Below are positions 3,488-64,000 of a DNA stretch of 64,000 nt, in pieces. Position 1 is the first letter of the stretch, and every line of letters starts with the position of its first letter. The translations under genes were made by a program, and so were the position numbers. The notes under the pieces are model-generated. The model was not told the DNA's origin. It made no database searches and saw nothing but the letters and a program-made list of their open reading frames with translations. This DNA comes from Escherichia coli. Its GTDB lineage: Bacteria > Pseudomonadota > Gammaproteobacteria > Enterobacterales > Enterobacteriaceae. The stretch is taken from NCBI RefSeq assembly GCF_024502345.1, contig NZ_JALDNN010000001.1. One strand, written 5' to 3'.

Positions 3488-3574
3488 AACACATCAGATT
3501 TCCTGGTGTAACGAATTTTTTAAGTGCTTCTTGCTTAAGCAAGTTTCATCCCGACCCCCTCAGGGTCGGGATTT
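3488..3574 (+). ncRNA. dsrA: DsrA small regulatory RNA (Hfq-dependent regulator of rpoS and hns)
   Basis: Sequence AACACATCAGATTTCCTGGTGTAACGAATTTTTTAAGTGCTTCTTGCTTAAGCAAGTTTCATCCCGACCCCCTCAGGGTCGGGATTT matches DsrA as recalled, including the terminal intrinsic-terminator hairpin and T-run. Confidence 0.8.
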
Positions 3575-38901: not shown

Positions 38902-38977
<76 letters not shown>

Positions 38978-39031
38978 GTTTAAAAGACATCGGCCTCAAG
39001 CGGATGTCTGGCTGAAAGGCCTGAAGAATTT

Positions 39032-39105
39032 GGCGCGTTAACAAAGCGGTTATGTAGCGGATTGCAAATCCGTCTAGTCCGGTTCGACTCCGGAACGCGC
39101 CTCCA
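39032..39105 (+). tRNA. cysT: tRNA-Cys (GCA anticodon)
   Basis: GGCGCGTTAACAAAGCGGTTATGTAGCGGATTGCAAATCCGTCTAGTCCGGTTCGACTCCGGAACGCGCCTCCA. Confidence 0.9.
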
Positions 39106-39117
39106 CTTTCTTCCCGA

Positions 39118-39204
39118 GCCCGGATGGTGGAATCGGTAGACACAAGGGATTTAAAATCCCTCGGCGTTCGCGCTGTGTGGGTTCAAGTCCCACTCCGGGT
39201 ACCA
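39118..39204 (+). tRNA. leuZ: tRNA-Leu (UAA anticodon), class II tRNA with long variable arm; integration site of the downstream island
   Basis: GCCCGGATGGTGGAATCGGTAGACACAAGGGATTTAAAATCCCTCGGCGTTCGCGCTGTGTGGGTTCAAGTCCCACTCCGGGTACCA. Confidence 0.9.
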
Positions 39205-44772: not shown

Positions 44773-45675
44773 TTACGGGGCGTTACTTGGCTGGGTGTAA
44801 CGTTTCAGTGCGGATTGTATATCTTCAGCAAGTTGTTGACGGATTGAGGCCGGTTGTATTACTTCGACATCCGGTATCCAGTATTTCATTAAAGGCATTA
44901 TCTGATCTGTGTGTGTTACACGTGATATCACCAGTAAATCGCCAGACCGGGAAGTATGAATTATTTCCTGTCCTGGCAATAGATGACGGTGGGTAAACCA
45001 CGGAGCAACATGTGCGGAAACTGAAATAAGAACTTCGATAAGGTCTTCGCTATACCAGATACCATCTGTCTTTTCTATTTTTTCATTAATTTCGGGGATT
45101 ATCCTGAAAGAGATATTACTCATGCAAACGTCTTTGACAGATGAGATAACAAAGCTTTTTAATGTACTGTCATGGGCGGCAGCGAGATACCACAATCCGT
45201 TGTCATTAACCAGCCTGTATGGCTCAACAGCCCGAAACTCTTTATCTTTGTAATTAAAATTTACTTTCTTCTGTGACAGGATGGCATCGGATAATACATT
45301 CAGAATTGACATGAATGATCCGCAGTTTTCGTATGGACGTTGTTTTATCAGAAACGGGTTGTTTTTCGTGTTACCTAACAAAATACTCAGTAGTCTGTCA
45401 TCCCAGCGAGGGAACAGCCCTTCAATACCCAGGATGCGCGTGAAATGACGTAAATCAGCATTGCTGCGTTGACCGAGAACACCGTCAGACAGGCGATAGC
45501 GACCATTTTGTCGAATCAGATTAAGATAGGACAGGCGCTGAGTAAGATCACGACGGATAGTTTTTTCGCAAACGTTAAATTCCTCAGATAACTCCCGGAC
45601 GGCTAGTGACTCACCATTGTTCAGGCGAGTTAATATCAATCCGAGTCGATATCCAAGTTTATCGTGCTTACCCAT
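44773..45675 (-). CDS. HTH + WYL-domain transcriptional regulator (BrxR/CapW-like, defence-island regulator family)
   Basis: 300-aa ORF; N-terminal DeoR-like HTH ([22 protein letters not shown]), central WYL-type segment ([10 protein letters not shown]). Confidence 0.65.
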
Positions 45676-50055: not shown

Positions 50056-51186
50056 TCATTTTTTCGTGTCATAACTTTCTATGACCTGAGAAACCACTGC
50101 GTGCGATGTCGCTGCATTGTGAAAAGCGTAGCGACGGGTCGCCGTGAGTGAATGGTGATTTAGCAGATGGGAAGCGATTGCAATATCCCCGGTCGCCTGT
50201 AGTACCCGGGTGGCAAAGGTACGGCGCAGGTCATGCATCCGCAGGTTATCAATGTTGGCATCCCGACAAATACGGGCAAAGGTTGCACGCGGATATGCCA
50301 GAGGGCGGGCATTGTCGGTTAGTTGTGGAAAAATGTAAGTTTTGCTGAGCATCAGGTCTTGCTGGCACTGGACAACTGCAATGGCTGGAGGTGCAAGTGG
50401 GCAGGTGAAAGGGTGTCCGGACTTTGTATCAGGCAGTATGAGTTGATGCATATCCGGGTGCCAGTACTCCCATTTCAGGGTACATACCTCACCAATACGC
50501 ATCCCCGTATAAAGAGCAAGCAATATAGAATCAGCTGCCGGTGTTTGCAGCGCTGTTGCCGCGTCAATAAAGCGCGGGATTTCTGTCGCTGATAGTGTGC
50601 GATAGCGAATGTTATTTTCTTTCAGATAGCGGACATGTGACATCGGGGAATGTGTGATCCATCCAGCACGTACTGCCAGAGAGCATATTTTGGACAATAT
50701 TGCGAGGATACGGTTTACTGTTGACGGACGTAATTTTTCCCGTAAGCCAGCAGCATATTGTTCTAGTTCCCCTGCCGTGATGTCGCGAAGTTGCCGCTTG
50801 CCCCAGAACGGGCGAACGTAGAGGTTGAGTTTTGACAACTCTGACTGAGGACTCTTTTTATACAACTGCAAATCCGGTAGCCACAGGTCATTGATGGCCT
50901 GTTCCACAGTGAATCGACGGGACTGAACCGCAAGACGATTTTTATCAGCAAGCAGTTTCATCACATGCTGACGGGCATCCTCAACGCAGAGCTGAGGGAA
51001 CTGACCCAGGGTTTCATATATACGCTGATTGTTTATAGTGGCACGAAAGGCCAGCGTGATCCGATTGGGATACACCAGAGCACGCAGGTTTTGGCAGTGA
51101 ATATCACGGTATTCCTGACAACCCGTGAGGGGATGTGGAAGTTGGTGAAGTGATTTGTTGCTGAAACGCAGATCCAGAATAGGCAT
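50056..51186 (-). CDS. Second tyrosine recombinase (XerC/D-like integrase)
   Basis: C-terminal catalytic motifs HDLRRTFATR, LLNHH, TATRRYAF. Confidence 0.8.
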   Translation of the reverse strand: MPILDLRFSNKSLHQLPHPLTGCQEYRDIHCQNLRALVYPNRITLAFRATINNQRIYETLGQFPQLCVEDARQHVMKLLADKNRLAVQSRRFTVEQAINDLWLPDLQLYKKSPQSELSKLNLYVRPFWGKRQLRDITAGELEQYAAGLREKLRPSTVNRILAILSKICSLAVRAGWITHSPMSHVRYLKENNIRYRTLSATEIPRFIDAATALQTPAADSILLALYTGMRIGEVCTLKWEYWHPDMHQLILPDTKSGHPFTCPLAPPAIAVVQCQQDLMLSKTYIFPQLTDNARPLAYPRATFARICRDANIDNLRMHDLRRTFATRVLQATGDIAIASHLLNHHSLTATRRYAFHNAATSHAVVSQVIESYDTKK

Positions 51187-51329: not shown

Positions 51330-52460
51330 CTACAGTTTCATGATCTTGTTCGCTATTTTTTCGAAGTAAACCTCATTCTTAAGAAGAGTGATATTGTTTG
51401 TTTGAACACCCAGACCACTGGAGGTTGACTGGAAGTTGAGTGAACCACTTATCACTGTGGACTTTCCTGATAAAAATGAAATCAACTCCTTGGAAGATGG
51501 TGCCCACTCAGGGTTTAAGAGTAATGCAATATAGATATATGTCTTACGAAGCAATTGTTCTATATCTTTTTTATGCCCTGTAGTGTTTTGCTTACCTTTA
51601 ATGCAAATAGATTTGATTATGAACTCATCAGGGCTGGTTAAAGGCGTTTTAAACTCACTCAGTGATCCATCGTTATGAATGACTTCATAAGGCAGCATAG
51701 ATAAAATGATCAATGCAATCATTTTAGGATGATAAAGGTAGTTATCACGAATGATTTTTCCTGCCTTCATTGTATTGAGCGTTGTTTGAATAAATACAAA
51801 AAGATATTCAGAGCAAAAGTAACAAAACACAAGCCAGGATAGGTCAATGGATGGAATGTTAATATCCTTAGGTAGTTTGTTTAGCCAGTATTCAGACTTC
51901 AAAAAGGTCCTGATTTCAACAGTATATTCATGCATTTTTGCGCTGAAATCAAGCATTGCTACTTGACCTGATTGTTCCGTAACTGTGTGGTCTATAAATG
52001 TTAGTGTATTGCACATTTTATCCAGCGTGTTTTGAAAACAAGAAAGGAGTTCGGCATTATTATTACCATTAACCGCAGATGAAAGTTCAGTTTTAATAAA
52101 TGCATCCAGTAGCATACAGATTTCTTTCGGAATGACATTTTTACGGGATTGCTGTGAATAGAAATGTACTGCCAGTAAATTAAAGGCAGTGCACTCCTTT
52201 TTTAACCATTGTTCGAGCACTGGGACGTGCTGAAAAAAATTGATATGCTTAGCAGTAGATGCTGATGGAGATAGTACATGAAGAATATCTACAGCAGGCT
52301 TCATTTGCAATATTTGATCGGATTCGGTAGTCGTCATTAGTTCCAGTAATTGCTGTTCAGAAAATAGTTTAGACAGGTGATCAATGTCTTTTTGGTATTG
52401 ATTAAGTTTTGTTAAATTCCCCGGTATACGGGTTACATTGTTTTTCATTTTCTCGAACAT
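51330..52460 (-). CDS. Hypothetical protein (AT-rich gene, no recognisable motifs)
   Basis: 376-aa ORF, Lys/Asn/Ile-rich; long uninterrupted frame in a strongly AT-rich stretch. Confidence 0.5.
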   Translation of the reverse strand: MFEKMKNNVTRIPGNLTKLNQYQKDIDHLSKLFSEQQLLELMTTTESDQILQMKPAVDILHVLSPSASTAKHINFFQHVPVLEQWLKKECTAFNLLAVHFYSQQSRKNVIPKEICMLLDAFIKTELSSAVNGNNNAELLSCFQNTLDKMCNTLTFIDHTVTEQSGQVAMLDFSAKMHEYTVEIRTFLKSEYWLNKLPKDINIPSIDLSWLVFCYFCSEYLFVFIQTTLNTMKAGKIIRDNYLYHPKMIALIILSMLPYEVIHNDGSLSEFKTPLTSPDEFIIKSICIKGKQNTTGHKKDIEQLLRKTYIYIALLLNPEWAPSSKELISFLSGKSTVISGSLNFQSTSSGLGVQTNNITLLKNEVYFEKIANKIMKL

Positions 52461-52966: not shown

Positions 52967-54202
52967 TTAAAAGGAAATAAATAATGCCTTCCGCCGATGA
53001 ATCAGTGTACTGATTTCTCGAAAATCAGCCTCAATACTACCAACATCACCAAAGACTTCACCACTAATCTCTCTTCGATTTTTCATGAAATTGGTGCTTA
53101 ATAAGCTTTCTTTTTTTAGTGTCACTAATTTTGGTTTTATATCGTTATAGAAATGCTTACGGCTTACCCTGATGCTATGAATCGAGTAGTAAACTGTTTT
53201 ATACATCAAAAATATAAGTAACTGGCCGAGAAGATATTCTTTTTCAATGTATTTATATTGAGAGGATTTTTCGCGTTTCGCCAGGTAGAAAACATGAGGT
53301 GCGATGATGGTGGGGATGAAATCCAGTGCTGGAGAGGTTTTGGTTTTTTCTGTTTCTCTTCCGGATTGAAGATGTTGAAGTACAGAGTATACAATGCTTA
53401 AAATTATGGCGTTACTTATATTATTAATTGCAGTTGGGTAAATATGCAGATTGCTTATCAATTCTGAAAGGCAAAGTAAAACACCAGTGATGTTGGGTTT
53501 TCTGCCGGAGATTGTGGTGCTGTTGAAAATGTGACGATTCTTACGACTTATATTGACAAGTTTATGAGTGCAGAACTCTATATGTTCGACGATTTTATCT
53601 TGACTATTTTTAATGTATTTTGAAATGTTAGTGATCCGGCCATTCAACGTTAGTTCATCAAGCAATATATCATTTTTAATATTGCGAATTTCATCGCAAT
53701 GTTCACATTGAGAAACTATCTCATGTAATACATAACTCGACGTATTGCGGGGTGACGCTGATATGTAATCTAAAATAGAAGGCTCGATTTTGATTTTTTG
53801 TTTGTATTTTTTAATGCACTGTTTGATTGTTTTTTGTAGAGTATTTGAGATGTGTTTTTTATATTCTTTTAGAAAATCTTGCTCTAAAAAGAGTGAGGAG
53901 AAGATCAACTGCTGGCGAGATAATTTAATCTCAGGCTTGATCAATTTAATCCGAAAAACTCTTCCCTCCAACTCATAGCTGAACATGGAAGATAAGTCAT
54001 AGTGGGGTGATAAATGTTCGAGTAACGACATTCGTGTATTCATTAGCCGCTTGAATTTATGGTCAGCATACATAAGTGTTTTTTTTATTTGCTCATCATA
54101 AAGTGGGCCGATAGCGCAGTTGGCAATACTCATTCTATCCGGAGACCTCCAGTCAGCAGGGGAATCACATTGACGGTCATCATTACTATCAAAGGGCATC
54201 AA
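52967..54202 (-). CDS. Hypothetical protein (AT-rich gene, no recognisable motifs)
   Basis: 411-aa ORF, similar composition to the preceding gene; divergent from hsdM. Confidence 0.5.
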   Translation of the reverse strand: MMPFDSNDDRQCDSPADWRSPDRMSIANCAIGPLYDEQIKKTLMYADHKFKRLMNTRMSLLEHLSPHYDLSSMFSYELEGRVFRIKLIKPEIKLSRQQLIFSSLFLEQDFLKEYKKHISNTLQKTIKQCIKKYKQKIKIEPSILDYISASPRNTSSYVLHEIVSQCEHCDEIRNIKNDILLDELTLNGRITNISKYIKNSQDKIVEHIEFCTHKLVNISRKNRHIFNSTTISGRKPNITGVLLCLSELISNLHIYPTAINNISNAIILSIVYSVLQHLQSGRETEKTKTSPALDFIPTIIAPHVFYLAKREKSSQYKYIEKEYLLGQLLIFLMYKTVYYSIHSIRVSRKHFYNDIKPKLVTLKKESLLSTNFMKNRREISGEVFGDVGSIEADFREISTLIHRRKALFISF

Positions 54203-54505
54203 CGTTGCCGATTATGGATCATGTCAGCTCCACACACCAGAACGGGTGATATATGGATCATCATTACCCCAACGGCAGTTTTACACCATGGCTAATATGG
54301 ATGCTATCTTACTAAGATAATTGGTTTTTAGCGAGTGACGAGCCCGGTTGTGTCAGTCTGTCTCATGTCGATATTACGGGGATGATGCAAACCTGAATGC
54401 TGCGATATTGGCGTGTCAGGGGAGGCATCTTACGGTATCATTTACCGCAATTTTTAAGATGCAAAGCCCTGCATCGCTAGCTTTTTCTTCAGACCAGGAT
54501 GATTC

Positions 54506-56029
54506 ATGAACGACAAAATCAGTCAGGACACGATCAACAAAGCCCTGTGGGCCGCGTGTGATACGTTCCGTGGCACCATCAGTGCTGATACCTATAAAGA
54601 CTTTATCCTTACCATGCTATTCCTTAAGTACATTTCGGATGTCTGGCAGGATCACTACGACGAATATAAAGTGCAATATGGTGATGAGCCGGAACTGATT
54701 GAAGCGATGATGGCGAACGAGCGCTTCGTGTTGCCGAAAAGCGCCAGTTTCTATGCGTTGTACGAGCGACGTCATGAGCCGGGCAACGGTGAGCGTATCG
54801 ATCAGGCGCTGCATGCGATTGAAGAAGCCAACGGCACCAAACTGAAAGATGCCGGGAAAAGTGTCTTCCAGGATATTTCGTTTAACACTGACCGTCTGGG
54901 CGAAGAAAAACAGAAGAACACCATCCTGCGTCAGTTGCTGGAAGACTTTGCCGGTGAAGATCTTAACCTGAAGCCAAGCCGTGTCGGTACGCTGGACGTT
55001 ATCGGTAATGCTTACGAATATCTGATCAAAAACTTTGCTGCCAGCGGTGGGCAGAAAGCCGGGGAATTCTATACCCCACCGGAAGTTTCGGATCTCATCG
55101 CTGAACTGCTTGATCCTCAACCCGGTGATACAATCTGCGACCCGGCCTGTGGTTCCGGTTCGTTGCTAATGAAGTGCGGGCGTAAAATTGTCTCAGGACA
55201 TGATAGCCGCAACTATGCGTTGTTCGGTCAGGAAGCGATTGGCTCCACGTGGTCGCTGGCGAAAATGAACATGTTCCTGCACGGCGAAGATAACCACAAA
55301 ATCGAGTGGGGCGATACCATTCGTAACCCGAAGTTGTTGGATAAAAACGGCGACCTGATGCTGTTTGATATCGTGACCGCAAACCCACCGTTCAGCCTGG
55401 ATAAGTGGGGCCATGACGAGGCCGAGAATGATAAGTTTGGGCGTTTCCGTCGCGGTGTACCGCCGAAGACTAAAGGGGATTACGCCTTTATCTCGCATAT
55501 GATCGAAACCCTGAAACCGGGAACGGGTCGTATGGGCGTAGTGGTGCCGCACGGTGTGCTGTTCCGTGGCTCCAGCGAAGGCAAAATTCGTCAGAAGCTG
55601 ATTGATGAAAACCTACTCGATGCGGTGATTGGCCTGCCTGAAAAACTGTTCTACGGTACGGGTATTCCTGCTGCAATTCTGATTTTTAAAAAGCAGAAAG
55701 TGGATGACAAGGTGCTGTTTATCGACGCCAGCCGTGAATTTAAGGCAGGTAAAAACCAGAACCAGCTCAGCGCAGAAAACATCGAGAAAATCGTCAAGAC
55801 CTACCGTGATGGCGATAGCGTCGAGAAATATGCCTACCTTGCCAGCCTGAAGGAGATTCAGGACAACGATTACAACCTCAATATTCCGCGCTATGTCGAT
55901 ACCTTTGAAGAAGAAGAAGATATCGATTTACTTGCCGTTCGTGCTGAGCGGGAGGAATTGAAAGCGGAACTGGCGAAATTGGAAACGCAGATGGCGGGTT
56001 ATCTGGAGGAGCTGGGTTATGGTGCCTAA
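54506..56029 (+). CDS. hsdM: Type I restriction-modification system methyltransferase subunit HsdM
   Basis: 507-aa ORF; SAM-binding motif DPACGSGSLL and catalytic NPPF (TANPPFSLDKW). Confidence 0.9.
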   Translation: MNDKISQDTINKALWAACDTFRGTISADTYKDFILTMLFLKYISDVWQDHYDEYKVQYGDEPELIEAMMANERFVLPKSASFYALYERRHEPGNGERIDQALHAIEEANGTKLKDAGKSVFQDISFNTDRLGEEKQKNTILRQLLEDFAGEDLNLKPSRVGTLDVIGNAYEYLIKNFAASGGQKAGEFYTPPEVSDLIAELLDPQPGDTICDPACGSGSLLMKCGRKIVSGHDSRNYALFGQEAIGSTWSLAKMNMFLHGEDNHKIEWGDTIRNPKLLDKNGDLMLFDIVTANPPFSLDKWGHDEAENDKFGRFRRGVPPKTKGDYAFISHMIETLKPGTGRMGVVVPHGVLFRGSSEGKIRQKLIDENLLDAVIGLPEKLFYGTGIPAAILIFKKQKVDDKVLFIDASREFKAGKNQNQLSAENIEKIVKTYRDGDSVEKYAYLASLKEIQDNDYNLNIPRYVDTFEEEEDIDLLAVRAEREELKAELAKLETQMAGYLEELGYGA

Positions 56030-57266
56030 GGGGTGGAAACGAGTACCGATTAAGGATGTGTGCGAGTCTATAATCGATTGCGTAAATAAAACAGCTCCAG
56101 TTGTTGATTATGAAACTCCCTTTAAGATGATTCGTACCACGAATGTACGTAATGGAAGGGTTAATACTGAAGACGTCAGATATGTGACTGAAGACACTTA
56201 CCTGCAATGGGTTCGACGCGGAAAACCGCAAGTAGGTGATATCATCTTTACACGTGAAGCACCTGTAGGAGAAGCAGGTGTCCTGCAAGATGCTGAAGGT
56301 ATTTTCCTCGGGCAAAGAACGATGATGTATCGAGCTGATACCTGCCTTTCAGATAACTATTTCTTGTTCTACTCGTTATCAAGTCCCTTCTGCCAGAAAC
56401 AAATTGAAGATTTTAGCAATGGCGGTACTGTAGCTCATATGAGAGTTCCAGATTGCGGTGAGATATTGATCAATCTACCGCCTTTCCTCGAACAAAAGAA
56501 AATCGCCCAAATCCTGTCAACCTGGGATAAGGCGATTTCGGTGACGGAAAAGCTTCTCACCAACAGCCAGCAGCAGAAAAAAGCCCTGATGCAGCAATTG
56601 CTTACTGGGAAGAAACGCTTGCTGGATGAGAATGGGACAAGGTTTTCTGAAACTTGGAAATTATATGCCTTATCGAAATTATTTCAGAGAGTTACGACTA
56701 AAAACAATGGAAAAAGCAACAATGTTGTAACCATTTCTGGACAACATGGTTTGATTAAACAGGAAGACTTTTTCAAGAAAACAGTCGCATCAGATACCCT
56801 TGATGGTTATTTCTTATTAAAAAAAGGGCAGTTTGCTTACAATAAAAGTTACTCTAATGGTTATCCGATGGGTGCAATAAAAAGATTAAATCGATATCCA
56901 GAGGGAGTAGTAACAACTCTGTATATATGTTTTGAACTTACTACACCCAAAAAATCATGTGGTGACTATTGGGAGCATTATTTTGAGTCAGGGCTTTTGA
57001 ATAACAGTTTGTCTCAAATTGCTCATGAAGGTGGACGGGCTCATGGCTTGCTAAATGTAAAACCTTCGGACTTCTTTTCATTAAAAGTTGCGGTTCCTGG
57101 CTTTGAAGAGCAACAAAAAATCGCATTAGTTCTGTCCGCTGCCGACACCGAAATCTCCACACTGGAGAAAAAACTCGCCTGCCTGAAAGACGAGAAGAAA
57201 GCCTTGATGCAGCAACTGCTGACCGGGAAACGTCGGGTGAAAGTGGATGAGGCGGTTGCCGTATGA
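56019..57266 (+). CDS. hsdS: Type I restriction-modification system specificity subunit HsdS
   Basis: 415-aa ORF with two target-recognition domains separated by conserved repeats (KKALMQQLLTGKKRLL and KKALMQQLLTGKRRVK); overlaps the hsdM end. Confidence 0.85.
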   Translation: MVPKGWKRVPIKDVCESIIDCVNKTAPVVDYETPFKMIRTTNVRNGRVNTEDVRYVTEDTYLQWVRRGKPQVGDIIFTREAPVGEAGVLQDAEGIFLGQRTMMYRADTCLSDNYFLFYSLSSPFCQKQIEDFSNGGTVAHMRVPDCGEILINLPPFLEQKKIAQILSTWDKAISVTEKLLTNSQQQKKALMQQLLTGKKRLLDENGTRFSETWKLYALSKLFQRVTTKNNGKSNNVVTISGQHGLIKQEDFFKKTVASDTLDGYFLLKKGQFAYNKSYSNGYPMGAIKRLNRYPEGVVTTLYICFELTTPKKSCGDYWEHYFESGLLNNSLSQIAHEGGRAHGLLNVKPSDFFSLKVAVPGFEEQQKIALVLSAADTEISTLEKKLACLKDEKKALMQQLLTGKRRVKVDEAVAV

Positions 57267-57946
57267 AACTGACGAAAAGCGGTCCACTGACTGACCGGGA
57301 AATCGACTGGCTGGAAGAAATATTAATGAAGTATGGAATGGATGATTCTGTACTCTGTTTCTCTGAGCTGGATGGATTGCTGACGGCGATTTTATCAGGT
57401 CCAAATATGGTTTCACCCAATATCTGGCTGAGTGCTATTTGGGGAGGAGGCGATTATCATCCGAAATGGTCATCTGAGAGAGAGATGGAGCGTTTTGTCA
57501 GTCTGTGTTTTCAGCATATGAACGATATCGCTGGTTGCCTTTATGACGCCCCTGAACTGTTTGAGCCGATTTTCAATGAGCGTGAGGTAAAGGGGGAAAA
57601 ATATACCATTGTGGAAGAGTGGTGTTTTGGTTATATGAAAGGAAAGTCACTGGATGACTGGTCTGGTCTTCCCGGTGAGTTACGGCCTTCTCTGGAAGTG
57701 ATCGCTCTTCATGGCGTGGAGAAGAATTTTCCTGTACTTGAGAAAATGACCGGAGAGCAGTTTGAGAAAAGTATTTCCCTTATTCAGCCTGCTGCACTGG
57801 CACTTTATCAGTACTGGTTGTCAGTGAGAATGTCAGAGGCATCATCCCGGCCTGTTCCAGTGAAGGGGGCAGAAAACATGCCCGGGCGAAATGACCCGTG
57901 TCCGTGTGGCAGCGGTAAAAAATTTAAGAAGTGCTGTCTGCATTGA
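57263..57946 (+). CDS. YecA-like (UPF0149) protein with C-terminal SEC-C zinc motif, embedded in the Type I R-M operon
   Basis: 227-aa ORF; C-terminal GRNDPCPCGSGKKFKKCCLH; start overlaps the hsdS stop (ATGA). Confidence 0.8.
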   Translation: MKLTKSGPLTDREIDWLEEILMKYGMDDSVLCFSELDGLLTAILSGPNMVSPNIWLSAIWGGGDYHPKWSSEREMERFVSLCFQHMNDIAGCLYDAPELFEPIFNEREVKGEKYTIVEEWCFGYMKGKSLDDWSGLPGELRPSLEVIALHGVEKNFPVLEKMTGEQFEKSISLIQPAALALYQYWLSVRMSEASSRPVPVKGAENMPGRNDPCPCGSGKKFKKCCLH

Positions 57947-57995
57947 TGAATCTTCATGTGACCAGTAGCGAGTAGCGCCAGAAAGAAAAGGATTA

Positions 57996-60900
57996 ATGAT
58001 GAACCAGACGTACACGCCAAAATTCCAGGAAGAATACAGCGCCAAAATTCCGGCACTGACGTTACTGACCAGCCTCGGCTGGACGTTTTTATCTCCGAAA
58101 CAGATTATGGATTACCGGGGCTATAAACAGGATGAGGTGGTGCTGCGTCCGGTTCTGCGTGAAGAGCTGTCGAAGCGTTCCTTTATGGCGGGTGGCAAAA
58201 CCTGCCAGTTATCGGAAAAAGCACTGGATAACCTGATATCACAGGTCTGTTCTCCGGCGCTGAATGAAGGGCTGCTCAAAGCCAATGAACGGATGTATAA
58301 CCATCTGCTCTACGGTATCGCCGTCACGGAGTTTGTCGATGGCAAGAAGGTCAACCCCACCATTGCGCTGATCGACTGGGAACATCCGGAAAATAACCAG
58401 TTCCACTTTACTGAAGAATTTACGGTATTGCGGTCAGGTGGTGTTGAAACCCGGAGGCCAGATATTGTCTGCTTTGTTAATGGTATCCCGCTGGCTGTTA
58501 TTGAAGCGAAAAGCCCGGCTGGTCATGGCAAGAAAGGGCCAACCATTGACGAGGGGATATCCCAGAGTATCCGCAACCAGTTCAACGATGAAATCCCGCA
58601 GCTGTTTGTCTACAGCCAGTTATTACTTTCGATTAACGGTCATGACGGGCGCTACGGTACATGCCATACGCCAATGAAATTCTGGGCGGCATGGCGCGAA
58701 GAAGATATTACCGATGCGCAGATGTATGCTCTGCGCAACCATCCTTTATCGACTGAACAAATTCATGCGTTGTTTGATCATCGTCCATCAGCCGATCTCA
58801 ACTGGTACCAACAGTTAATCGCCGCCGGTGAACTGGCTGTCAGTGGACAGGACAAACTGCTCATCAGCCTGCTTTCGCCGGAACGTCTGCTGGAGATGAC
58901 CCGCTTCTTCACTCTGTTTGATAAAAAGACCGGGAAAATTGTCGCCCGCTATCAGCAGGTGTTCGGTATTAAAAGACTGCTGGAGCGCATCAGTACCCGC
59001 AGACCCGATGGGGGCAGGGAAGGTGGTGTTATCTGGCATACCACCGGCTCTGGCAAATCGTACACCATGGTGTTCCTCAGCAAGGCGCTGATTCTTCATG
59101 ACAGCCTGAAGCGGTGTCGTATCGTGGTGGTGACGGACCGTATCGATCTTGAAGAACAGCTCAGCAGTACCTTTGCATCCGGCGGCGAGTTGGCCGGGAA
59201 AAAAGACAAAGCCAATGCAATGGCGACATCCGGGCAGATGCTGGCGAAACAGATTGGCTCCGGTAAAGAACGCATCATTTTCACCCTAATCCAGAAATTT
59301 AATTCAGCGACAAAACTTCCTGAATGCGTCAATACCAGCCCCGATATCATCGTTCTGGTTGATGAAGGACACCGTAGCCAGGGTGGTGAGAACCATGTGC
59401 GAATGAAACTGGCACTGCCGAACGCCGCCTTTGTGGCATTTACTGGTACGCCATTGCTAAAAGAAGATAAGACCACCAATAAATTCGGACCGATTGTCCA
59501 CGCTTATACCATGCAGCGAGCGGTAGAAGATAAAGCCGTTACACCTTTGCTGTATGAAGAACGTATTCCCGACCTTGAGGTTAACGATCGGGCAATAGAT
59601 GCCTGGTTTGATCGTATTACCGATGGGTTAAGCGAAGCGCAAAAAGCCGACCTGAAGCGTAAATATGCCCGTAAAGGTGAGGTTTATAGTGCAGATGATC
59701 GCATCCGTCTGATCGCACTCGATATCGCCACGCACTTCTCGAAGAATATTGATGAGGGACTGAAAGGCCAGCTTGCCTGCGACAGCAAGATTTCCGCCAT
59801 CAAATATAAAAAGTATCTTGATGAAGCCGGGTTGTTTGAGTCAGCTGTAGTTATCAGCCCGCCGGATACCCGGGAAGGGAATACCGAAGTGGATGAAAGC
59901 AAACTGCCGGAAGTGACGAAATGGTGGAAGGATAATGTCGGCACGCAGGATGAGTCTGTGTATACCCGTAATGTCATCAGTCGTTTCGATACCGATGAGA
60001 AGCTCAAATTGCTGATAGTCGTTGATAAACTGCTCACCGGGTTTGATGAGCCGAAGAATACCGTGCTGTATATCGACAAGCCGCTTAAGTCCCACAACCT
60101 TATCCAGGCGATTGCGCGGGTGAACCGACTGCATCCACTAAAAAAGTTCGGTCTGCTGATTGATTATCGCGGTATTCTGGCTGAGCTGGACACGACTATC
60201 GGCAAATATCAGGACCTCGCCTCCCGAACTCAGGGCGGATACGATATCAAAGATATTGACGGGCTGTACAGCGCCATGAGCTCTGAATACAAGCGCCTGC
60301 CGCATCTGTATAACCAGCTGTGGGCCATATTTGCCGGTGTTAAAAACAAAAATGATACTGAGCAGTTACGTGCGGTACTGGTGCCTAAAATGGAAGAACG
60401 TGACGGAGAGATGGTCGATATCCATCAGAAAACCCGTGATGATTTCTTCGAGGCGTTAACGGCCTTTGCCGGATGCCTGAAAGTGGCACTGCAGTCCGCT
60501 ACCTTCTTCACCGACAAGAGCTTTACGGAACAAGACCGAAATCTCTATAAAGAAACCGTAAAACAGATGTCCAGCCTGCGCCAGTGGGCGATGCAGGTAA
60601 GTGGAGAGCAGGTCAATTATGACGACTACGCTGAGCAGGTGAAAAAACTGCTGGATAAGCATGTCACCGGCGTTGAAGTTCGTGAACCGGATGGCGTGTA
60701 TGAAGTCGGTAAAATGGGCAAGAGCGAAAAGCCCGAAGAGTGGGACAACAATAAAACCCGCAATGAAACCGACATCATTAAAACCCGTGTGACAAAGATG
60801 ATTGAGCAGGAATTGCGTGATGACCCGTATGCTCAGGAGGCATTTTCAAAACTCCTGCGTATGGCTATCGAAGAGGCTGAAAAACTGTTTGACCATCCGC

Positions 60901-61283
60901 TGAAACAGTACCTTTTGTTCCGTGAATTTGAAGAACAGGTTGAAGCCCGTAAGCTCAGCGATATCCCGGATGCACTGGCGGTAAACAAGCATGCTCAGGC
61001 GTATTACGGTGTATTTAAAAAAGAGCTACCTGAGGTTTTTGCGGTAAACGACGTTCAGGTGCAGGATAAGTGGACGAAGCTGGCTTTTGAAGTGGACAAC
61101 ATTATCGTCAAAGCGGTGGCAGAAAACTCCCTGAACCCCCAGGACATTGAGAAAGTCGTTAAGACAAGTCTGCTACCACTGCTGTTTACGGCCTGCCGGG
61201 AAATTGGTGCCGGAATGAATCAGGTTAACCGTATTGTTGAAACCATCATCCAGATACTGCGCGTTGGTTTGATGAAATCATGA
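57996..61283 (+). CDS. hsdR: Type I restriction-modification system endonuclease/helicase subunit HsdR
   Basis: 1095-aa ORF; Walker A TGSGKS, DEAH-type motif VLVDEGHRSQ, helicase C region. Confidence 0.9.
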   Translation: MMNQTYTPKFQEEYSAKIPALTLLTSLGWTFLSPKQIMDYRGYKQDEVVLRPVLREELSKRSFMAGGKTCQLSEKALDNLISQVCSPALNEGLLKANERMYNHLLYGIAVTEFVDGKKVNPTIALIDWEHPENNQFHFTEEFTVLRSGGVETRRPDIVCFVNGIPLAVIEAKSPAGHGKKGPTIDEGISQSIRNQFNDEIPQLFVYSQLLLSINGHDGRYGTCHTPMKFWAAWREEDITDAQMYALRNHPLSTEQIHALFDHRPSADLNWYQQLIAAGELAVSGQDKLLISLLSPERLLEMTRFFTLFDKKTGKIVARYQQVFGIKRLLERISTRRPDGGREGGVIWHTTGSGKSYTMVFLSKALILHDSLKRCRIVVVTDRIDLEEQLSSTFASGGELAGKKDKANAMATSGQMLAKQIGSGKERIIFTLIQKFNSATKLPECVNTSPDIIVLVDEGHRSQGGENHVRMKLALPNAAFVAFTGTPLLKEDKTTNKFGPIVHAYTMQRAVEDKAVTPLLYEERIPDLEVNDRAIDAWFDRITDGLSEAQKADLKRKYARKGEVYSADDRIRLIALDIATHFSKNIDEGLKGQLACDSKISAIKYKKYLDEAGLFESAVVISPPDTREGNTEVDESKLPEVTKWWKDNVGTQDESVYTRNVISRFDTDEKLKLLIVVDKLLTGFDEPKNTVLYIDKPLKSHNLIQAIARVNRLHPLKKFGLLIDYRGILAELDTTIGKYQDLASRTQGGYDIKDIDGLYSAMSSEYKRLPHLYNQLWAIFAGVKNKNDTEQLRAVLVPKMEERDGEMVDIHQKTRDDFFEALTAFAGCLKVALQSATFFTDKSFTEQDRNLYKETVKQMSSLRQWAMQVSGEQVNYDDYAEQVKKLLDKHVTGVEVREPDGVYEVGKMGKSEKPEEWDNNKTRNETDIIKTRVTKMIEQELRDDPYAQEAFSKLLRMAIEEAEKLFDHPLKQYLLFREFEEQVEARKLSDIPDALAVNKHAQAYYGVFKKELPEVFAVNDVQVQDKWTKLAFEVDNIIVKAVAENSLNPQDIEKVVKTSLLPLLFTACREIGAGMNQVNRIVETIIQILRVGLMKS

Positions 61284-62035
61284 GTGAAAAAGAATCGCCA
61301 TCAATGAAAGCGTTACGCATTGTCTATGGTGATGAGGTCATCGTCGTACAGTGTGTTCCGCGTCAGGTCGTAAAGGGCAGGGTGCTCATTAAGGTTTATC
61401 CGGACTGCCGGGTTGTGGCCTCTGTACCGCCTGAAACACCGGAGCACGAGGTATTGTCTGCGCTGAAAAAACGTGGGCGCTGGATATACCAGCAACTGCG
61501 TGATTTCAGGGAGCAACAGATACACATTGTTCCGCGTCAGTATGTCAGCGGAGAAAGCCATTATTATCTCGGTAAGCAATATCAGTTGAAAGTGACAGAA
61601 GACGCTACTGTGCCGCAACGAGTGAAAATGTTGCGTGGACGTCTGGAAGTGACTGTCAGACACAAATCGGCAGAAAAGATTAAAGCCTTGCTGGCTGAAT
61701 GGTATCGGGAACGTGCCAGAGATGTTTTTCAGCGCAGGCTTGATTTACTGATTCCGCAGACCCTTTGGGTCAGTGAGCGTCCTCCGATACGTCTGCGGGC
61801 GATGCAAACGCAATGGGGCAACTGTTCAGCAAAAGGCTGTCTGACCCTGAATCCATGGCTGGTTAAGGCATCTTCAGAATGTATCGATTATGTTTTGCTA
61901 CATGAGTTATGCCATGTGGCTGAGCACAACCACAGCGAGGAGTTTTACCGTCTGATGGGACAGGTTATGCCGGGCTGGGAAAAGGTTAAGAAGCGACTGG
62001 ATGGTATGGCTGGGATGTTGTTGGCAGATATGTAA
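61280..62035 (+). CDS. YgjP-like (DUF45 / M48 family) zinc metallopeptidase, coupled to hsdR
   Basis: 251-aa ORF with HExxH motif (LLHELCHVAEHNH); start overlaps the hsdR stop (ATGA). Confidence 0.75.
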   Translation: MSEKESPSMKALRIVYGDEVIVVQCVPRQVVKGRVLIKVYPDCRVVASVPPETPEHEVLSALKKRGRWIYQQLRDFREQQIHIVPRQYVSGESHYYLGKQYQLKVTEDATVPQRVKMLRGRLEVTVRHKSAEKIKALLAEWYRERARDVFQRRLDLLIPQTLWVSERPPIRLRAMQTQWGNCSAKGCLTLNPWLVKASSECIDYVLLHELCHVAEHNHSEEFYRLMGQVMPGWEKVKKRLDGMAGMLLADM

Positions 62036-62060
62036 CTTATCAATATGAGTTCTTAAGAGT

Positions 62061-63932
62061 TTGGTCAGTCTCGTTAATGCAGGGAGTATAATAATGAGTA
62101 AGTTAGATAATAAAATTGAAGCACGCCATCGTAATTTGTTTGATGTTCTAAATGCGCAAAAATATACCGTTGATTACTTTCAGCGCGAGTATAGCTGGGG
62201 TGAGAAACATATTGAAGAGTTGGTTACAGACTTAACATCTGCGTTTCTCAATGAATACACAGTCGGTGATTCTCGGGAGCAGGGTGAAAACTACAATAAT
62301 TATTACTTAGGACCATTTGTTGTGAGTAGTAAAGATGGAAAGCGGAGTATTATTGATGGTCAGCAACGACTGACTTCATTAACTTTATTTCTAATTTACC
62401 TCCATAATCTTCAGAAAGAACTTAAATATGAAGAGAAAATAGAATCAATGATTTTCTCCGAGCTACGTGGCAGCAAATCATTCAATATAGTAGTTGAAGA
62501 CAGAATTCCTTGCATGGAAGCATTGTTTAATTTTGGTAGCTATAGTTTAGTTGATGGGGATGATGAGTCAACCCATAACATGGTGGAGAGATATCAGAAT
62601 ATCACAGATGCTTTTCCTGATGAGTTAAAAGGTCAGGCTTTTCCTTTTTTTATCGACTGGCTTAAGTATAACGTTATTATGGTTGAGATAGTCGCCTATT
62701 CAGATGAAAACGCATATACCATCTTTGAGACTATGAATGACCGAGGATTGAATCTTACTCCGTCCGAAATGCTTAAAGGTTTTTTACTTTCACGTTTTCA
62801 TCAGGGAGATAAACGCCAAAAGGCAAATGAACTCTGGAAAAAAGCGATGATGGATTTAAAAAGCTATGACAAAGATGAAGACCAACGTTTTTTCCAGTCA
62901 TGGTTGCGTGCTCAATATGCTGATACAATACGCCCGGGTAAAGCTGGTTCAAAAAATGAAGACTTTGAAAAAATAGGTACGCGTTTTCATAGCTGGGTTA
63001 GAGATAATCTTCAGGCGGTGGGATTGGACCCAGATAATGGTGAGACATTCGAACGATTTATACAAAAAAACTTTTTGTTTTATTTGAATGCCTATACACA
63101 AATACTGAATGCTGAGAGAGTATTAACGCACCAACTGGAATATGTATTTTATATCCACCATTGGGGTATTGCACCTACTTTAAGTTTTCCTTTGATGTTG
63201 GCTCCATTAAATGTAGGTGACAGTCCTGAGGCTGTGATAGCCAAAATAAACCTAGTGGCTCGCTATATTGAAACGTTTGTTGTTCGTCGTTCTGTTAATT
63301 TCCGAAAATTCTCTGCCAGTTCTATTCGTTACACAATGTACAGTCTTGTTAAAGAGATTCGTGGTAAAAGTTTTGAAGAATTAAAAGATTTATTATCTAA
63401 GAAGTTATCCGAAATGCCAGATACTTTTGCAGGAATGGAAGAGTTTCGTCTCCATGGTCAAAACTATCGTTTTGTGAAGTTTTTGCTTTCTCGTATAACT
63501 GCGTGGGTTGAGCAACAAGCCGGAATGAGTACAACCTTCATTACATATTATCAGCCAGAACACGGTAAGCCATTTGAAGTCGAGCATATTTGGGCCGATA
63601 AATATGAACGTTACTCTGATGAGTTTGAACAAGAGCACGAATTTAACAATTACAGAAATCGCTTAGGTGATTTGGTTTTATTACCTAGAGGCTCAAACCA
63701 GTCATATGGTGATTTGTGTTACGATCAAAAGCAACCTCATTACATCAAAGAGAATCTCCTGGCTAAATCGTTATGCCCATTGGCATATATGAATAACCCT
63801 AATTTCAATCAGTTGAGAAATGTATTCGGATTGCCTTTCAAACCACATGATTCATTTAAAAAACAAGATGTCGATGAACGACAGTCTTTGTATAAAATAA
63901 TTTGTGAGAATATTTGGGGCCATAATTTATAG
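62061..63932 (+). CDS. GmrSD-family Type IV restriction endonuclease (N-terminal DUF262 ParB-like domain, C-terminal DUF1524 HNH-like nuclease)
   Basis: 623-aa ORF; DUF262 signature IIDGQQRLTSL; C-terminal segment EVEHIWADKYERYSDEFEQEHEFNNYRNRLGDLVLLP. Confidence 0.75.
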   Translation: MVSLVNAGSIIMSKLDNKIEARHRNLFDVLNAQKYTVDYFQREYSWGEKHIEELVTDLTSAFLNEYTVGDSREQGENYNNYYLGPFVVSSKDGKRSIIDGQQRLTSLTLFLIYLHNLQKELKYEEKIESMIFSELRGSKSFNIVVEDRIPCMEALFNFGSYSLVDGDDESTHNMVERYQNITDAFPDELKGQAFPFFIDWLKYNVIMVEIVAYSDENAYTIFETMNDRGLNLTPSEMLKGFLLSRFHQGDKRQKANELWKKAMMDLKSYDKDEDQRFFQSWLRAQYADTIRPGKAGSKNEDFEKIGTRFHSWVRDNLQAVGLDPDNGETFERFIQKNFLFYLNAYTQILNAERVLTHQLEYVFYIHHWGIAPTLSFPLMLAPLNVGDSPEAVIAKINLVARYIETFVVRRSVNFRKFSASSIRYTMYSLVKEIRGKSFEELKDLLSKKLSEMPDTFAGMEEFRLHGQNYRFVKFLLSRITAWVEQQAGMSTTFITYYQPEHGKPFEVEHIWADKYERYSDEFEQEHEFNNYRNRLGDLVLLPRGSNQSYGDLCYDQKQPHYIKENLLAKSLCPLAYMNNPNFNQLRNVFGLPFKPHDSFKKQDVDERQSLYKIICENIWGHNL

Positions 63933-64000
63933 CAAAGTTGGGGTGTTAATTAATGTGTAATGGCATCATGATTTTTAAAAGGAGGTTGAATTGCGTTCTG

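What the first reader, a model, noticed from the sequence alone, without database searches (positions are those of the whole stretch)
54506..63932. Stacked restriction cargo: Type I R-M operon with two embedded accessory genes followed by a GmrSD Type IV enzyme
hsdM and hsdS overlap by 11 bp; a yecA-like gene starts on the hsdS stop (ATGA); hsdR follows; an M48/YgjP-like metallopeptidase gene starts on the hsdR stop (ATGA); a GmrSD-family gene follows 25 bp later. The tight junctions argue for one coupled transcription unit combining methylation-dependent and methylation-independent restriction.
Basis: partly seen in the sequence, partly recalled or inferred. Interest (0 to 1): 0.55.

Follow-up and report, generated by a model that had tools for sequence, protein, structure and literature searches.

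The report
Type I restriction module plus GmrSD
This is an intact, already catalogued anti-phage gene array carried by a mobile element (a pipolin) in E. coli. [quoted passage not shown]

Summary
Six intact + strand genes lie at 54506-63932: hsdM, hsdS (11-bp overlap), a YecA-family gene (ATGA overlap), hsdR, a YgjP-like metallopeptidase labelled "M48" (ATGA overlap) and a GmrSD-family gene. One correction: the GmrSD start is more likely ATG 62094 (58-bp gap) than TTG 62061.

The array sits in the cargo arm of a pipolin integrated at tRNA-Leu (leuZ). From 56476 to 64000 it is 99.4% identical to the ETEC H10407 pipolin.

Comparison with 20+ loci shows a fixed backbone, hsdM-hsdS-yecA'-[slot 1]-hsdR-M48-[slot 2]. 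YecA' always abuts hsdS, and M48 always overlaps the hsdR stop, down to 31% identity. Both are under purifying selection.

GmrSD is exchangeable slot-2 cargo. Homology and GC content break exactly at the M48 stop, and other loci carry GmrSD genes only 22-27% identical in the same place. So "one coupled unit" is plausible for hsdM to M48 but unproven for GmrSD.

The kind is known: the EPEC RRDM island, TgvAB in a Vibrio Type I system, and published pipolin cargo lists (Type 1 RM, PDC-S12, HEC-06). New here is only an hsdS TRD1 absent from 5,426 complete E. coli genomes.

The roles of YecA' and M48 remain open. My best guess is subunit chaperoning and HsdR turnover.

The parts
54413..54441 (+). 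Candidate sigma-70 promoter for hsdM (GTGTCA-17-TATCAT)
   Evidence: Consensus scan. The number of promoter-like sites in the region is no more than chance. However, the -10 block GGTATCAT is kept in diverged loci L009 and L011. No rptR gene and no RptR-type palindromes lie upstream.
54506..56029 (+). hsdM, Type I m6A methyltransferase subunit (507 aa)
   Evidence: TIGR00497 4.5e-84, above the curated cut-off. PADLOC MTase_I 5e-133. Motifs DPACGSG at residue 212 and NPPF at 293. dN/dS about 0.03.
56019..57266 (+). hsdS, specificity subunit (415 aa): TRD1, CR1, TRD2, CR2
   Evidence: PADLOC Specificity_I 1e-113 over the full length. There are two variable TRDs and two conserved KKALMQQLLTGK(K/R)R regions. 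TRD1 (about 56039-56475) differs from H10407 and has no megablast match in 5,426 complete E. coli genomes. TRD2 is identical to H10407.
57263..57946 (+). yecA' : YecA-family paralogue (UPF0149 domain plus SecA-like SEC-C metal-binding domain), equivalent to PADLOC candidate PDC-S12
   Evidence: NF007704 at 356.7 bits against a cut-off of 149. PDC-S12 3.9e-99. Pfam UPF0149 plus SEC-C. It is 57% identical to the core E. coli YecA. It forms a distinct 75-100% identity clade that always abuts hsdS. dN/dS is 0.075-0.12.
57947..58016 (+). Cargo slot 1 (empty here): the yecA'-hsdR spacer plus the first 21 nt of hsdR
   Evidence: Homology to other loci stops at the yecA' stop and resumes at 58017. Other loci carry a 620-aa CSD-domain gene, a 594-aa unknown gene or a GmrSD gene here.
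57996..61283 (+). hsdR, restriction/translocase subunit (1095 aa; RefSeq homologues start at the second ATG, 57999)
   Evidence: TIGR00348 6.9e-138. PADLOC REase_I at 1375 bits over the full length. Motifs PD...IEAK, TGSGKS, DEGH and QAIARVNR. Only a remote match to EcoR124I HsdR, 3e-33 in the motor domain. dN/dS is 0.03-0.08.
61280..62035 (+). YgjP-like zinc metallopeptidase ('M48 family' in RefSeq), 251 aa, start overlapping the hsdR stop
   Evidence: PF01863 7.6e-58, with weak WLM and SprT-like matches. H208-E209-x-x-H212 and H218 are invariant in 125 diverse homologues. AF2 model pLDDT 95.8. The C-terminal domain matches the minigluzincins proabylysin, jannalysin and selecase, and more weakly Wss1 and IrrE. 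dN/dS is 0.03-0.05 in all but the nearly identical H10407 comparison (0.11).
62036..62093 (+). Boundary of cargo slot 2: spacer between M48 and GmrSD
   Evidence: In about 540 E. coli genomes, homology with hsdR-M48 ends at the M48 stop. GC drops from 0.496 to 0.367. No terminator-like hairpin lies on the + strand here.
62094..63932 (+). GmrSD-family (DUF262 plus DUF1524) nuclease, 612 aa; alternative TTG start at 62061
   Evidence: Pfam GmrSD_N 4.6e-33 and GmrSD_C 1.5e-07. PADLOC HEC-06 1.3e-39. Motifs QR, DGQQR, FxxxN and the His-Me finger EVEH...N...N. This allele is found in 157 of 5,426 complete E. coli genomes and is directly adjacent to M48 in 5 of 5 cross-checked. It is 99% identical in Buttiauxella.
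63991..64000 (+). Start (TTG, with AGGAGG RBS at 63980) of the next same-strand gene, cut off by the window end
   Evidence: By colinearity with H10407 (99.4% identity to position 64000), this is the PD-(D/E)XK protein gene. That protein matches PADLOC PDC-S26 at 7.6e-50.

Best explanation
The region is the first part of the defence-cargo arm of an E. coli pipolin integrated at leuZ.

**Backbone.** It holds an intact Type I restriction-modification module with a fixed five-gene backbone: hsdM-hsdS-yecA'-hsdR-M48.

**How the core works.** This is inferred from the Type I families. M2S methylates a bipartite target set by the two TRDs of HsdS. R2M2S translocates along unmethylated DNA and cuts it.

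**Slots.** The backbone contains two recombination slots. Slot 1, between yecA' and hsdR, is empty here. Slot 2, after M48, holds a GmrSD-family NTPase/His-Me nuclease.

**GmrSD.** By family analogy it attacks DNA whose base modifications let it escape Type I cleavage. That gives a layered defence.

**The two accessory genes.** They are conserved, selected parts of the module and are coupled to different subunits. YecA' is translationally coupled to HsdS. The YgjP-like metallopeptidase is translationally coupled to HsdR.

**Most likely roles (inferred, not shown).** YecA' is a ribosome/SecB-binding holdase paralogue that stabilises or assembles newly made HsdS or the methylase core. The peptidase removes HsdR, giving a ClpXP-independent form of restriction alleviation or establishment control.
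For: **Gene identities and intact motifs:**

**Pipolin context.**
- The island starts after the leuZ tRNA gene.
- A piPolB-like 887-aa ORF carries DTEY, GNSLYGK, KTRG and TTDG motifs.
- Two tyrosine recombinases are present.
- From 56476 to 64000 the sequence is 99.4% identical to ETEC H10407. H10407 is a published pipolin strain (PMC7385651).
- The pipolin paper lists Type 1 RM, PDC-S12, HEC-06 and mza as enterobacterial pipolin cargo.

**Backbone and slots.**
- Sharp homology breaks lie at the yecA' stop, at hsdR +21 and at the M48 stop.
- Slot contents vary between loci.

**YecA'-hsdS coupling.**
- All 8 YecA'-clade loci among 80 species-level hits have hsdM and hsdS abutting. None of the 72 core yecA loci do.
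- In E. coli, 29 of 29 full-length rows listed overlap hsdS.
- The coupling holds with an hsdM that is only 42% identical to the window's.

**M48-hsdR coupling** is kept at 53% and 31% identity and in EPEC RRDM.

**Selection:** dN/dS is 0.02-0.12 for all four backbone genes tested.

**Peptidase:** invariant HExxH plus H218 and a minigluzincin-like model.

**Background.**
- Core YecA/AscA is a holdase that binds ribosomes and SecB through its metal-binding domain (preprint). That domain is conserved in YecA'.
- HsdR proteolysis by ClpXP is the known restriction-alleviation route for Types IA and IB. Type IC is ClpXP-insensitive and its mechanism is unresolved.
- GmrSD homologues are known to associate with Type I loci.
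Against: - There are no expression, methylome or phage data for this locus.
- Promoter-like sites in the region are no more frequent than chance.
- Neither YecA' nor the peptidase has any tested function. The EPEC study cloned M48 with the island but did not assign it a role.
- YecA' evolves about three times faster (in dN/dS) than HsdM, HsdR or M48. That would also fit an arms-race role such as sensor, decoy or effector.
- YgjP-like proteins also occur outside R-M contexts.
- This GmrSD matches HEC-06 profiles only in pieces. It has no close solved relative: the best hit is 9jfl at 1.8e-09. Its substrate is unknown, and family members such as SspE sense phosphorothioate rather than modified cytosine.
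- The Pfam match of the putative piPolB is weak (E = 0.015).
Confidence: 0.8

Rival explanations
1. One reading: all six genes form one coupled operon that evolved as a unit, combining modification-blocked and modification-dependent restriction.
For: All genes are on one strand. Gaps are at most 58 bp. Two junctions share ATGA. No terminator-like hairpin lies in any junction. GmrSD-family genes recur next to this module in several genera.
Against: The GmrSD gene is a separate cassette. Homology and GC content break exactly at the M48 stop. Only 157 of about 540 E. coli hsdR-M48 modules carry this allele. Other loci carry GmrSD genes 22-27% identical, a TgvAB-like pair or unrelated genes in the same slot. 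The same GmrSD allele (99% aa) sits beside an 83%-identical YecA' in Buttiauxella. The same-strand array continues past GmrSD.
Confidence: 0.35
2. YecA' and/or the peptidase are defence genes in their own right. They would act as a guard or abortive-infection effector triggered when a phage inhibits the Type I enzyme, in the manner of PrrC within EcoprrI. Alternatively, they would act as a factor against anti-restriction proteins such as Ocr or ArdA.
For: YecA' occupies the same hsdS-hsdR position as PrrC, DarTG2 and Abi_2 in related loci. PADLOC lists it as the single-gene candidate PDC-S12. YecA' evolves faster than its neighbours. The peptidase fold has weak similarity to IrrE/PprI-type signal-responsive proteases.
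Against: YecA' has no toxin, nuclease or NTPase domain. It keeps the full architecture and the metal-binding domain of a housekeeping chaperone. It is fixed in the backbone, while true cargo inserts downstream of it. It is never found apart from hsdS. M48 is tied to hsdR across very deep divergence, which fits a housekeeping role for the enzyme better than a phage-specific counter-measure.
Confidence: 0.2
3. The module is a decaying or methylase-only remnant with no restriction function, for example an epigenetic regulator.
For: Some relatives are disrupted by IS elements or truncated (H50 and H64).
Against: In the window all six genes are full-length with intact catalytic motifs. Strong purifying selection acts on hsdR and M48.
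Confidence: 0.05

Closest known systems
ETEC H10407 pipolin cargo (Type 1 RM + PDC-S12 + HEC-06 + PDC-S26 + MZA), as catalogued for enterobacterial pipolins (PMC7385651; PMC11551731)
   Same: Same integration site (leuZ) and the same gene order. Identity is 99.4% from the centre of hsdS to the window end, including identical YecA' and 99.3-99.8% identical HsdR, M48 and GmrSD.
   Different: The hsdM allele is diverged (dS 0.53). TRD1 of hsdS is different and is not seen in 5,426 complete E. coli genomes, so the predicted recognition half-site is new.
EPEC E2348/69 RRDM island: rptR-hsdM-hsdS-darT-darG-hsdR-M48 (PMC12255303)
   Same: A Type I module with an insertion site between hsdS and hsdR and an M48-labelled metallopeptidase gene directly after hsdR. 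It is experimentally anti-phage.
   Different: The window has no rptR and no TAGCTA-type operator. YecA' follows hsdS instead of DarTG2. A GmrSD gene lies downstream. Sequence homology to the EPEC genes was not tested directly.
Vibrio cholerae VPI-2 Type I R-M with embedded TgvAB; RloF in Campylobacter; Machnicka's survey of GmrSD in Type I loci
   Same: GmrSD-family (DUF262/DUF1524) genes are physically nested with a Type I system and are proposed to cover modified phages. Locus L009 even has a TgvAB-like pair after M48.
   Different: In the window there is a single fused GmrSD placed after the module, not a two-protein system between hsd genes. Its activity and substrate are untested.
EcoprrI-PrrC (Type IC locus with an embedded anticodon nuclease)
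   Same: An extra gene lies between hsdS and hsdR of a Type I operon.
   Different: PrrC is an ATPase plus anticodon nuclease that guards the enzyme. YecA' is a UPF0149/SEC-C chaperone-like protein with no nuclease domain. HsdR here is only remotely related to Type IC HsdR.
Core E. coli YecA/AscA
   Same: Full-length homology at 57% identity, the same two-domain architecture, and a near-identical SecA-like metal-binding domain.
   Different: YecA' belongs to a distinct clade (at least 75% identical within the clade, at most 60% to any core YecA). It is found only fused into Type I operons on mobile elements. The core yecA lies at the far end of the island. Its proximity is a by-product of the pipolin attachment site.

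Membership tests
Type I restriction-modification system | HsdM with AdoMet-binding and NPPF motifs | tested here: met
   TIGR00497 at 283 bits against a cut-off of 242.75. DPACGSG at residue 212 and NPPF at 293.
Type I restriction-modification system | HsdS with two target-recognition domains separated by conserved regions | tested here: met
   Full-length PADLOC Specificity_I match, 1e-113. The alignment shows two variable TRDs and two conserved regions.
Type I restriction-modification system | HsdR with a PD-(D/E)xK nuclease and a DEAD-box translocase | tested here: met
   TIGR00348 at 461 bits against a cut-off of 284.55. Motifs PD...IEAK, TGSGKS and DEGH.
Type I restriction-modification system | Sequence-specific m6A methylation, and ATP-dependent cleavage of unmodified DNA | not testable with these tools
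   Requires a methylome and restriction assays.
Type I subfamily IA-IE | Close sequence similarity or complementation with a prototype (EcoKI, EcoAI, EcoR124I, StySBLI, KpnBI) | tested here: inconclusive
   Only EcoR124I HsdR (Type IC) is matched among solved structures, and only in the motor domain at 3e-33.
GmrSD family Type IV restriction enzyme | N-terminal DUF262 with QR, DGQQR and FxxxN motifs | tested here: met
   PF03235 4.6e-33. FQREY at residue 29, DGQQR at 88 and FETMN at 211.
GmrSD family Type IV restriction enzyme | C-terminal DUF1524 His-Me finger nuclease | tested here: met
   PF07510 1.5e-07. EVEH at residue 495 and N-containing motifs at 522-537.
GmrSD family Type IV restriction enzyme | Cleavage dependent on DNA modification | not testable with these tools
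   Family-level inference only. Family members differ in substrate: BrxU and GmrSD act on modified cytosines, SspE senses phosphorothioate.
YecA family (NCBIfam NF007704, UPF0149 + SEC-C) | Score above the curated equivalog cut-off, with both domains present | tested here: met
   356.7 bits against a cut-off of 149. UPF0149 5.9e-30 and SEC-C 4.4e-10.
YecA family (NCBIfam NF007704, UPF0149 + SEC-C) | Orthology with the chromosomal yecA (same locus, same function) | tested here: not met
   It is 57% identical to core YecA, which is present separately next to tyrP. It forms a separate clade with a different, R-M-bound context. It is a paralogue or xenologue, not the orthologue.
YgjP-like / 'M48' zinc metallopeptidase | HExxH zinc site in a YgjP-like domain | tested here: met
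   PF01863 7.6e-58. H208, E209, H212 and H218 are invariant in 125 homologues. The model has a minigluzincin-like catalytic domain.
YgjP-like / 'M48' zinc metallopeptidase | Membership of MEROPS M48 proper (Ste24/HtpX type) | tested here: inconclusive
   No NCBIfam hit. The structural neighbours are minigluzincins. The M48-type BepA is matched only at E = 0.6. The 'M48' label is RefSeq's naming.
Pipolin | Encodes a primer-independent family-B DNA polymerase (piPolB) | tested here: inconclusive
   The 887-aa ORF at 46430-49093 (-) shows DTEY, GNSLYGK, KTRG and TTDG motifs. These are recognised from my own knowledge of piPolB. The Pfam DNA_pol_B_2 match is only E = 0.015.
Pipolin | Integration at tRNA-Leu between pgsA and yecA, with tyrosine recombinases | tested here: met
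   leuZ lies at 39118-39204, directly before the island. Recombinases lie at 40237-41484 and 50056-51186. The second att repeat lies outside the window.
RptR-regulated Type I island (RRDM type) | rptR upstream of hsdM, with at least two TAGCTA-type operators | tested here: not met
   None of the four operator variants occurs in 54203-54505. The only upstream + strand ORFs found are a 78-aa ORF of odd composition and a 54-aa ORF at 53814-53978 that was not examined. Neither was aligned to an RptR sequence.

The most novel reading that the evidence does not exclude
This Type I lineage carries its own proteostasis layer.

- A housekeeping ribosome/SecB-binding holdase (YecA/AscA) was duplicated and domesticated as a dedicated partner of HsdS. 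This would help frequently reshuffled specificity subunits fold and assemble.
- A minigluzincin-type peptidase, translationally coupled to HsdR, would carry out ClpXP-independent restriction alleviation or establishment control.

If true, the PADLOC candidate 'PDC-S12' is not a stand-alone defence system but an R-M assembly factor. It would also supply a missing mechanism for how Type I families outside IA and IB avoid self-restriction.
Probability: 0.25. Interest if true: 0.6.

Novelty: new member of a known kind. Interest (0 to 1): 0.3.

Why it matters
As a locus it is ordinary. The same array is in 64 complete E. coli genomes, and its components are already listed as pipolin cargo.

Its value lies in the anatomy revealed by comparison. 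First, there is a fixed hsdM-hsdS-yecA'-hsdR-M48 backbone with two razor-sharp cargo slots. This explains why PrrC-, DarTG-, Abi- and GmrSD-type genes keep turning up inside or beside Type I operons.

Second, it flags two conserved, selected but uncharacterised accessory proteins, each coupled to a different subunit. They are cheap to test genetically. They could explain how Type I families that do not use ClpXP control HsdR. They could also explain how reshuffled HsdS subunits stay functional.

Tried and rejected
1. **RptR control, as in EPEC RRDM.** Rejected. There are no operator palindromes and no credible rptR ORF upstream.
2. **YecA' captured from the neighbouring core yecA.** Rejected. 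It is only 55-57% identical to E. coli core YecA. It is slightly closer (59-60%) to Erwiniaceae core YecAs. The module also occurs at other chromosomal sites and on plasmids.
3. **Relationship of other pre-hsdR genes to YecA'.** The 225-aa gene in metagenomic locus L092 is unrelated.
4. **PADLOC identity of slot-1 cargo.** The 620-aa CSD-domain protein and the 594-aa protein gave no hits.
5. **Internal promoters or terminators that would split the operon.** The scans are uninformative. The promoter count equals the shuffle expectation, and no + strand terminator-like site lies in a junction.
6. **Rfam scan of the window.** Nothing lies in the region.
7. **Literature on DUF45/COG1451 links to R-M.** Text hits were false (DUF450). 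Titheradge 2001 on Type ID gene organisation is not held, so the Type I subfamily was left unassigned.
8. **Fold search for the N-terminal beta-rich half of the peptidase.** No PDB match by Foldseek.

Full report
**1. Observation**

Six + strand ORFs occupy 54506-63932, each with a single terminal stop: hsdM (54506-56029), hsdS (56019-57266), a YecA-family gene (57263-57946), hsdR (57996-61283), a YgjP-like metallopeptidase gene (61280-62035) and a GmrSD-family gene ending at 63932.

- an 11-bp hsdM/hsdS overlap;
- ATGA at hsdS/yecA';
- a 49-bp gap before hsdR;
- ATGA at hsdR/M48.

One correction is needed. The '25 bp' gap before GmrSD assumes a TTG at 62061 with no ribosome-binding site. ATG 62094 has GGGAG 7 nt upstream and is the RefSeq start of the 99.3%-identical H10407 protein. 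The gap is therefore more likely 58 bp.

Family assignments are strong, and all expected catalytic motifs are present.

**2. Context**

The window is E. coli chromosome; its core genes are about 99% identical to E. coli genomes. The glyW-cysT-leuZ tRNA cluster lies at 38902-39204. A lower-GC island begins directly after it.

The island encodes two tyrosine recombinases. It also encodes an 887-aa protein with the DTEY, GNSLYGK, KTRG and TTDG motifs that I recognise as primer-independent PolB. Pfam support for that protein is weak (E = 0.015).

From 56476 to the window end, the region is 99.4% identical to ETEC H10407. H10407 is a published pipolin-carrying strain, and E. coli pipolins integrate at Leu-tRNA. 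The 2024 pipolin study describes enterobacterial pipolins as bimodular. It lists Type 1 RM, PDC-S12, mza, hhe and HEC-06 among their exchangeable cargo, at the tRNA-Leu site between pgsA and yecA. That is the set found here and in H10407.

In H10407, GmrSD is followed by a PDC-S26 PD-(D/E)XK protein, an Mrr-like nuclease and the MZA system. The first of these starts at 63991 in the window and is cut off by its end.

**3. Anatomy by comparison**

Counts in 5,426 complete E. coli genomes:

| Segment | Genomes |
|---|---|
| hsdR-M48 pair | 540 |
| yecA' | 417 |
| This GmrSD allele | 157 |
| Whole 9.7-kb array | 64 |

Pairwise blastn against seven loci gives a clear modular map:

| Window coordinates | Segment |
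|---|---|
| to 56038 | hsdM (conserved) |
| about 56039-56475 | TRD1 (variable) |
| 56490-56645 | CR1 (conserved) |
| between CR1 and 57106 | TRD2 (variable) |
| 57106-57946 | CR2 plus yecA' (conserved block) |
| 57947-58016 | slot 1 |
| 58017-62034 | hsdR plus M48 (conserved block) |
| from 62035 | slot 2 |

Slot 1 is empty in the window, H10407, NCTC11023 and L009. Elsewhere it holds:
- a 620-aa cold-shock-domain protein in many E. coli and in Franconibacter;
- a 594-aa unknown protein in L011;
- a GmrSD gene in Morganella and Providencia.

Slot 2 holds:
- this GmrSD;
- a 169-aa gene plus a different GmrSD, 22% identical;
- a TgvAB-like DUF262 pair;
- unrelated genes.

The window's GmrSD allele recurs at 99% amino-acid identity in Buttiauxella, next to a YecA' that is only 83% identical. 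This shows cassette exchange.

**4. The accessory genes are backbone, not cargo**

*YecA'.* It is 57% identical over its full length to the core E. coli YecA. It belongs to a discrete clade: 75-100% identical within the clade and at most 60% to any core YecA.

In a scan of one genome per species, all 8 YecA'-clade loci have hsdM and hsdS abutting upstream. All 6 with enough sequence have hsdR and M48 downstream. None of the 72 core yecA loci has hsdM or hsdS. In E. coli, 29 of 29 full-length rows listed overlap an hsdS gene. In Morganella the coupling holds with an hsdM that is only 42% identical to the window's.

*The peptidase.* Its start overlaps the hsdR stop in every locus. This holds in metagenomic relatives at 53% and 31% identity, the latter with an Abi_2 gene between hsdS and hsdR. 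It also holds in the EPEC RRDM island. At least one relative at 35% identity sits in a non-R-M context.

*Selection.* All four backbone genes are under purifying selection:

| Gene | dN/dS |
|---|---|
| hsdM | about 0.03 |
| hsdR | 0.03-0.08 |
| M48 | 0.03-0.05 (0.11 in the near-identical H10407 pair) |
| yecA' | 0.075-0.12 |

Two separate couplings therefore exist: HsdS with YecA', and HsdR with M48.

**5. Mechanism**

*Supported by homology.* This is a complete Type I enzyme. The M2S methylase and R2M2S translocating nuclease mechanism follows from established knowledge of these families. It is followed by a GmrSD-type NTPase/His-Me nuclease.

The complementary-coverage idea is the accepted reading for GmrSD next to Type I or BREX systems: Type I acts on unmodified DNA, and GmrSD acts on DNA whose modifications block Type I. 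It is not demonstrated for this divergent allele.

*Inferred for YecA'.* Core YecA/AscA is reported in a preprint to be a holdase that binds ribosomes and SecB through its SecA-like metal-binding domain. YecA' keeps that domain almost unchanged, at 80% identity between clades, and keeps the UPF0149 domain.

It is translationally coupled to HsdS. It also diverges as one block with HsdS CR2: 80-83% nucleotide identity, while CR1 stays at 91-95%. I therefore favour a role as a dedicated HsdS or methylase assembly/stability factor, with probability about 0.35.

*Inferred for the peptidase.* It has an invariant HExxH plus H218 site. The model is confident (pLDDT 95.8). Its C-terminal domain matches minigluzincins and, more weakly, Wss1 and IrrE/PprI.

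HsdR proteolysis by ClpXP is the known restriction-alleviation mechanism for Types IA and IB, and other families lack it. I therefore favour HsdR turnover, with probability about 0.35.

The main rival is a guard or effector role of the PrrC or DarTG kind, with probability about 0.2.

**6. Transcription unit**

A promoter-like site at 54413-54441 has a -10 block conserved in diverged loci. No rptR gene and no RptR operator is present. No terminator-like hairpin lies in any + strand junction.

The overlaps argue for translational coupling of hsdM-hsdS-yecA' and of hsdR-M48. Co-transcription of GmrSD is allowed but not indicated by evolutionary linkage.

**7. Comparison and novelty**

The kind is known:
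- EPEC RRDM, with the order rptR-hsdMS-darTG-hsdR-M48;
- EcoprrI-PrrC;
- TgvAB in the VPI-2 Type I system, and RloF;
- pipolin cargo catalogues.

The instance differs from H10407 only in two ways. The hsdM allele is diverged (dS 0.53, against at most 0.03 for the downstream genes). TRD1 of hsdS is unmatched in complete E. coli genomes, which implies a new recognition half-site.

I rate it a new member of a known kind, with interest 0.3. The residual interest lies in the unassigned functions of YecA' (PDC-S12) and the HsdR-coupled peptidase.

Noticed in passing
window 39205-64000 (island), piPolB-like ORF 46430-49093 (-): The whole island after leuZ looks like a pipolin. It has a piPolB-like 887-aa ORF with DTEY, GNSLYGK, KTRG and TTDG motifs. 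Two tyrosine recombinases lie at 40237-41484 (+) and 50056-51186 (-). A putative regulator lies at 44773-45675 (-); it has only weak sub-threshold family hits (TIGR03985 2e-05, below its cut-off). The second att repeat is outside the window.
   Followed up: partly
window 56039-56475 (hsdS TRD1): This target-recognition domain has no megablast match in 5,426 complete E. coli genomes. TRD2 is identical to that of ETEC H10407. This implies a hybrid specificity not represented among complete genomes.
   Followed up: partly
window 54506-56476: There is a recombination breakpoint. hsdM differs from H10407 (dS 0.53, 92% nt identity), whereas everything from the centre of hsdS onward is 99.4% identical (dS 0.03 or less).
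   Followed up: yes
window 63980-64000: Another same-strand gene starts at TTG 63991, after an AGGAGG RBS, and is cut off by the window end. Its H10407 homologue is a PD-(D/E)XK protein matching PADLOC PDC-S26. It is followed by an Mrr-like nuclease and the five-gene MZA system.
   Followed up: partly
window 54458-54490: A hairpin (GATGCA...TGCATC) followed by a T-run lies in the predicted hsdM 5' leader, between the -10 box and the start codon. Diverged locus L011 keeps the stem with one apparently compensatory pair. It could be an attenuator or a stability element.
   Followed up: no
window 51330-52460 (-) and 52967-54202 (-): Two low-GC (0.34-0.38) ORFs of 376 and 411 aa have no NCBIfam or PADLOC match. 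They are nevertheless conserved directly upstream of hsdM in E. coli pipolins (H10407, L002, L003).
   Followed up: partly
L002/L004/L012 slot 1 (e.g. L002 5051-6913): A 620-aa protein with a single weak cold-shock domain (E = 2.4e-4) fills the yecA'-hsdR slot in many E. coli and in Franconibacter. Its start overlaps the last 56 nt of yecA'. It has no PADLOC hit, so it is a possible untested defence gene.
   Followed up: partly
L018 (Morganella) and L006-L008 (Providencia): YecA' also follows hsdS where the hsdM is only 42% identical to the window's. In those loci a GmrSD (HEC-06-like) gene sits directly after YecA', in slot 1. No hsdR-M48 pair was seen: the contig ends in Morganella, and the locus is IS-disrupted in Providencia.
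   Followed up: partly
window ~34528-35496 (-): An IS5-family (IS903B-like) element is inserted between sdiA and uvrY in the core chromosome.
   Followed up: no
window 3488-3574 (+): The DsrA small RNA gene is present (Rfam, 102.5 bits). It is an ordinary core-genome feature.
   Followed up: no
L049 (Citrobacter amalonaticus), L054 (C. koseri): hsdR-M48, with this GmrSD allele in L054, lies a few kb from the core yecA in Citrobacter too. This suggests that the same tRNA-Leu island site is used across genera.
   Followed up: no
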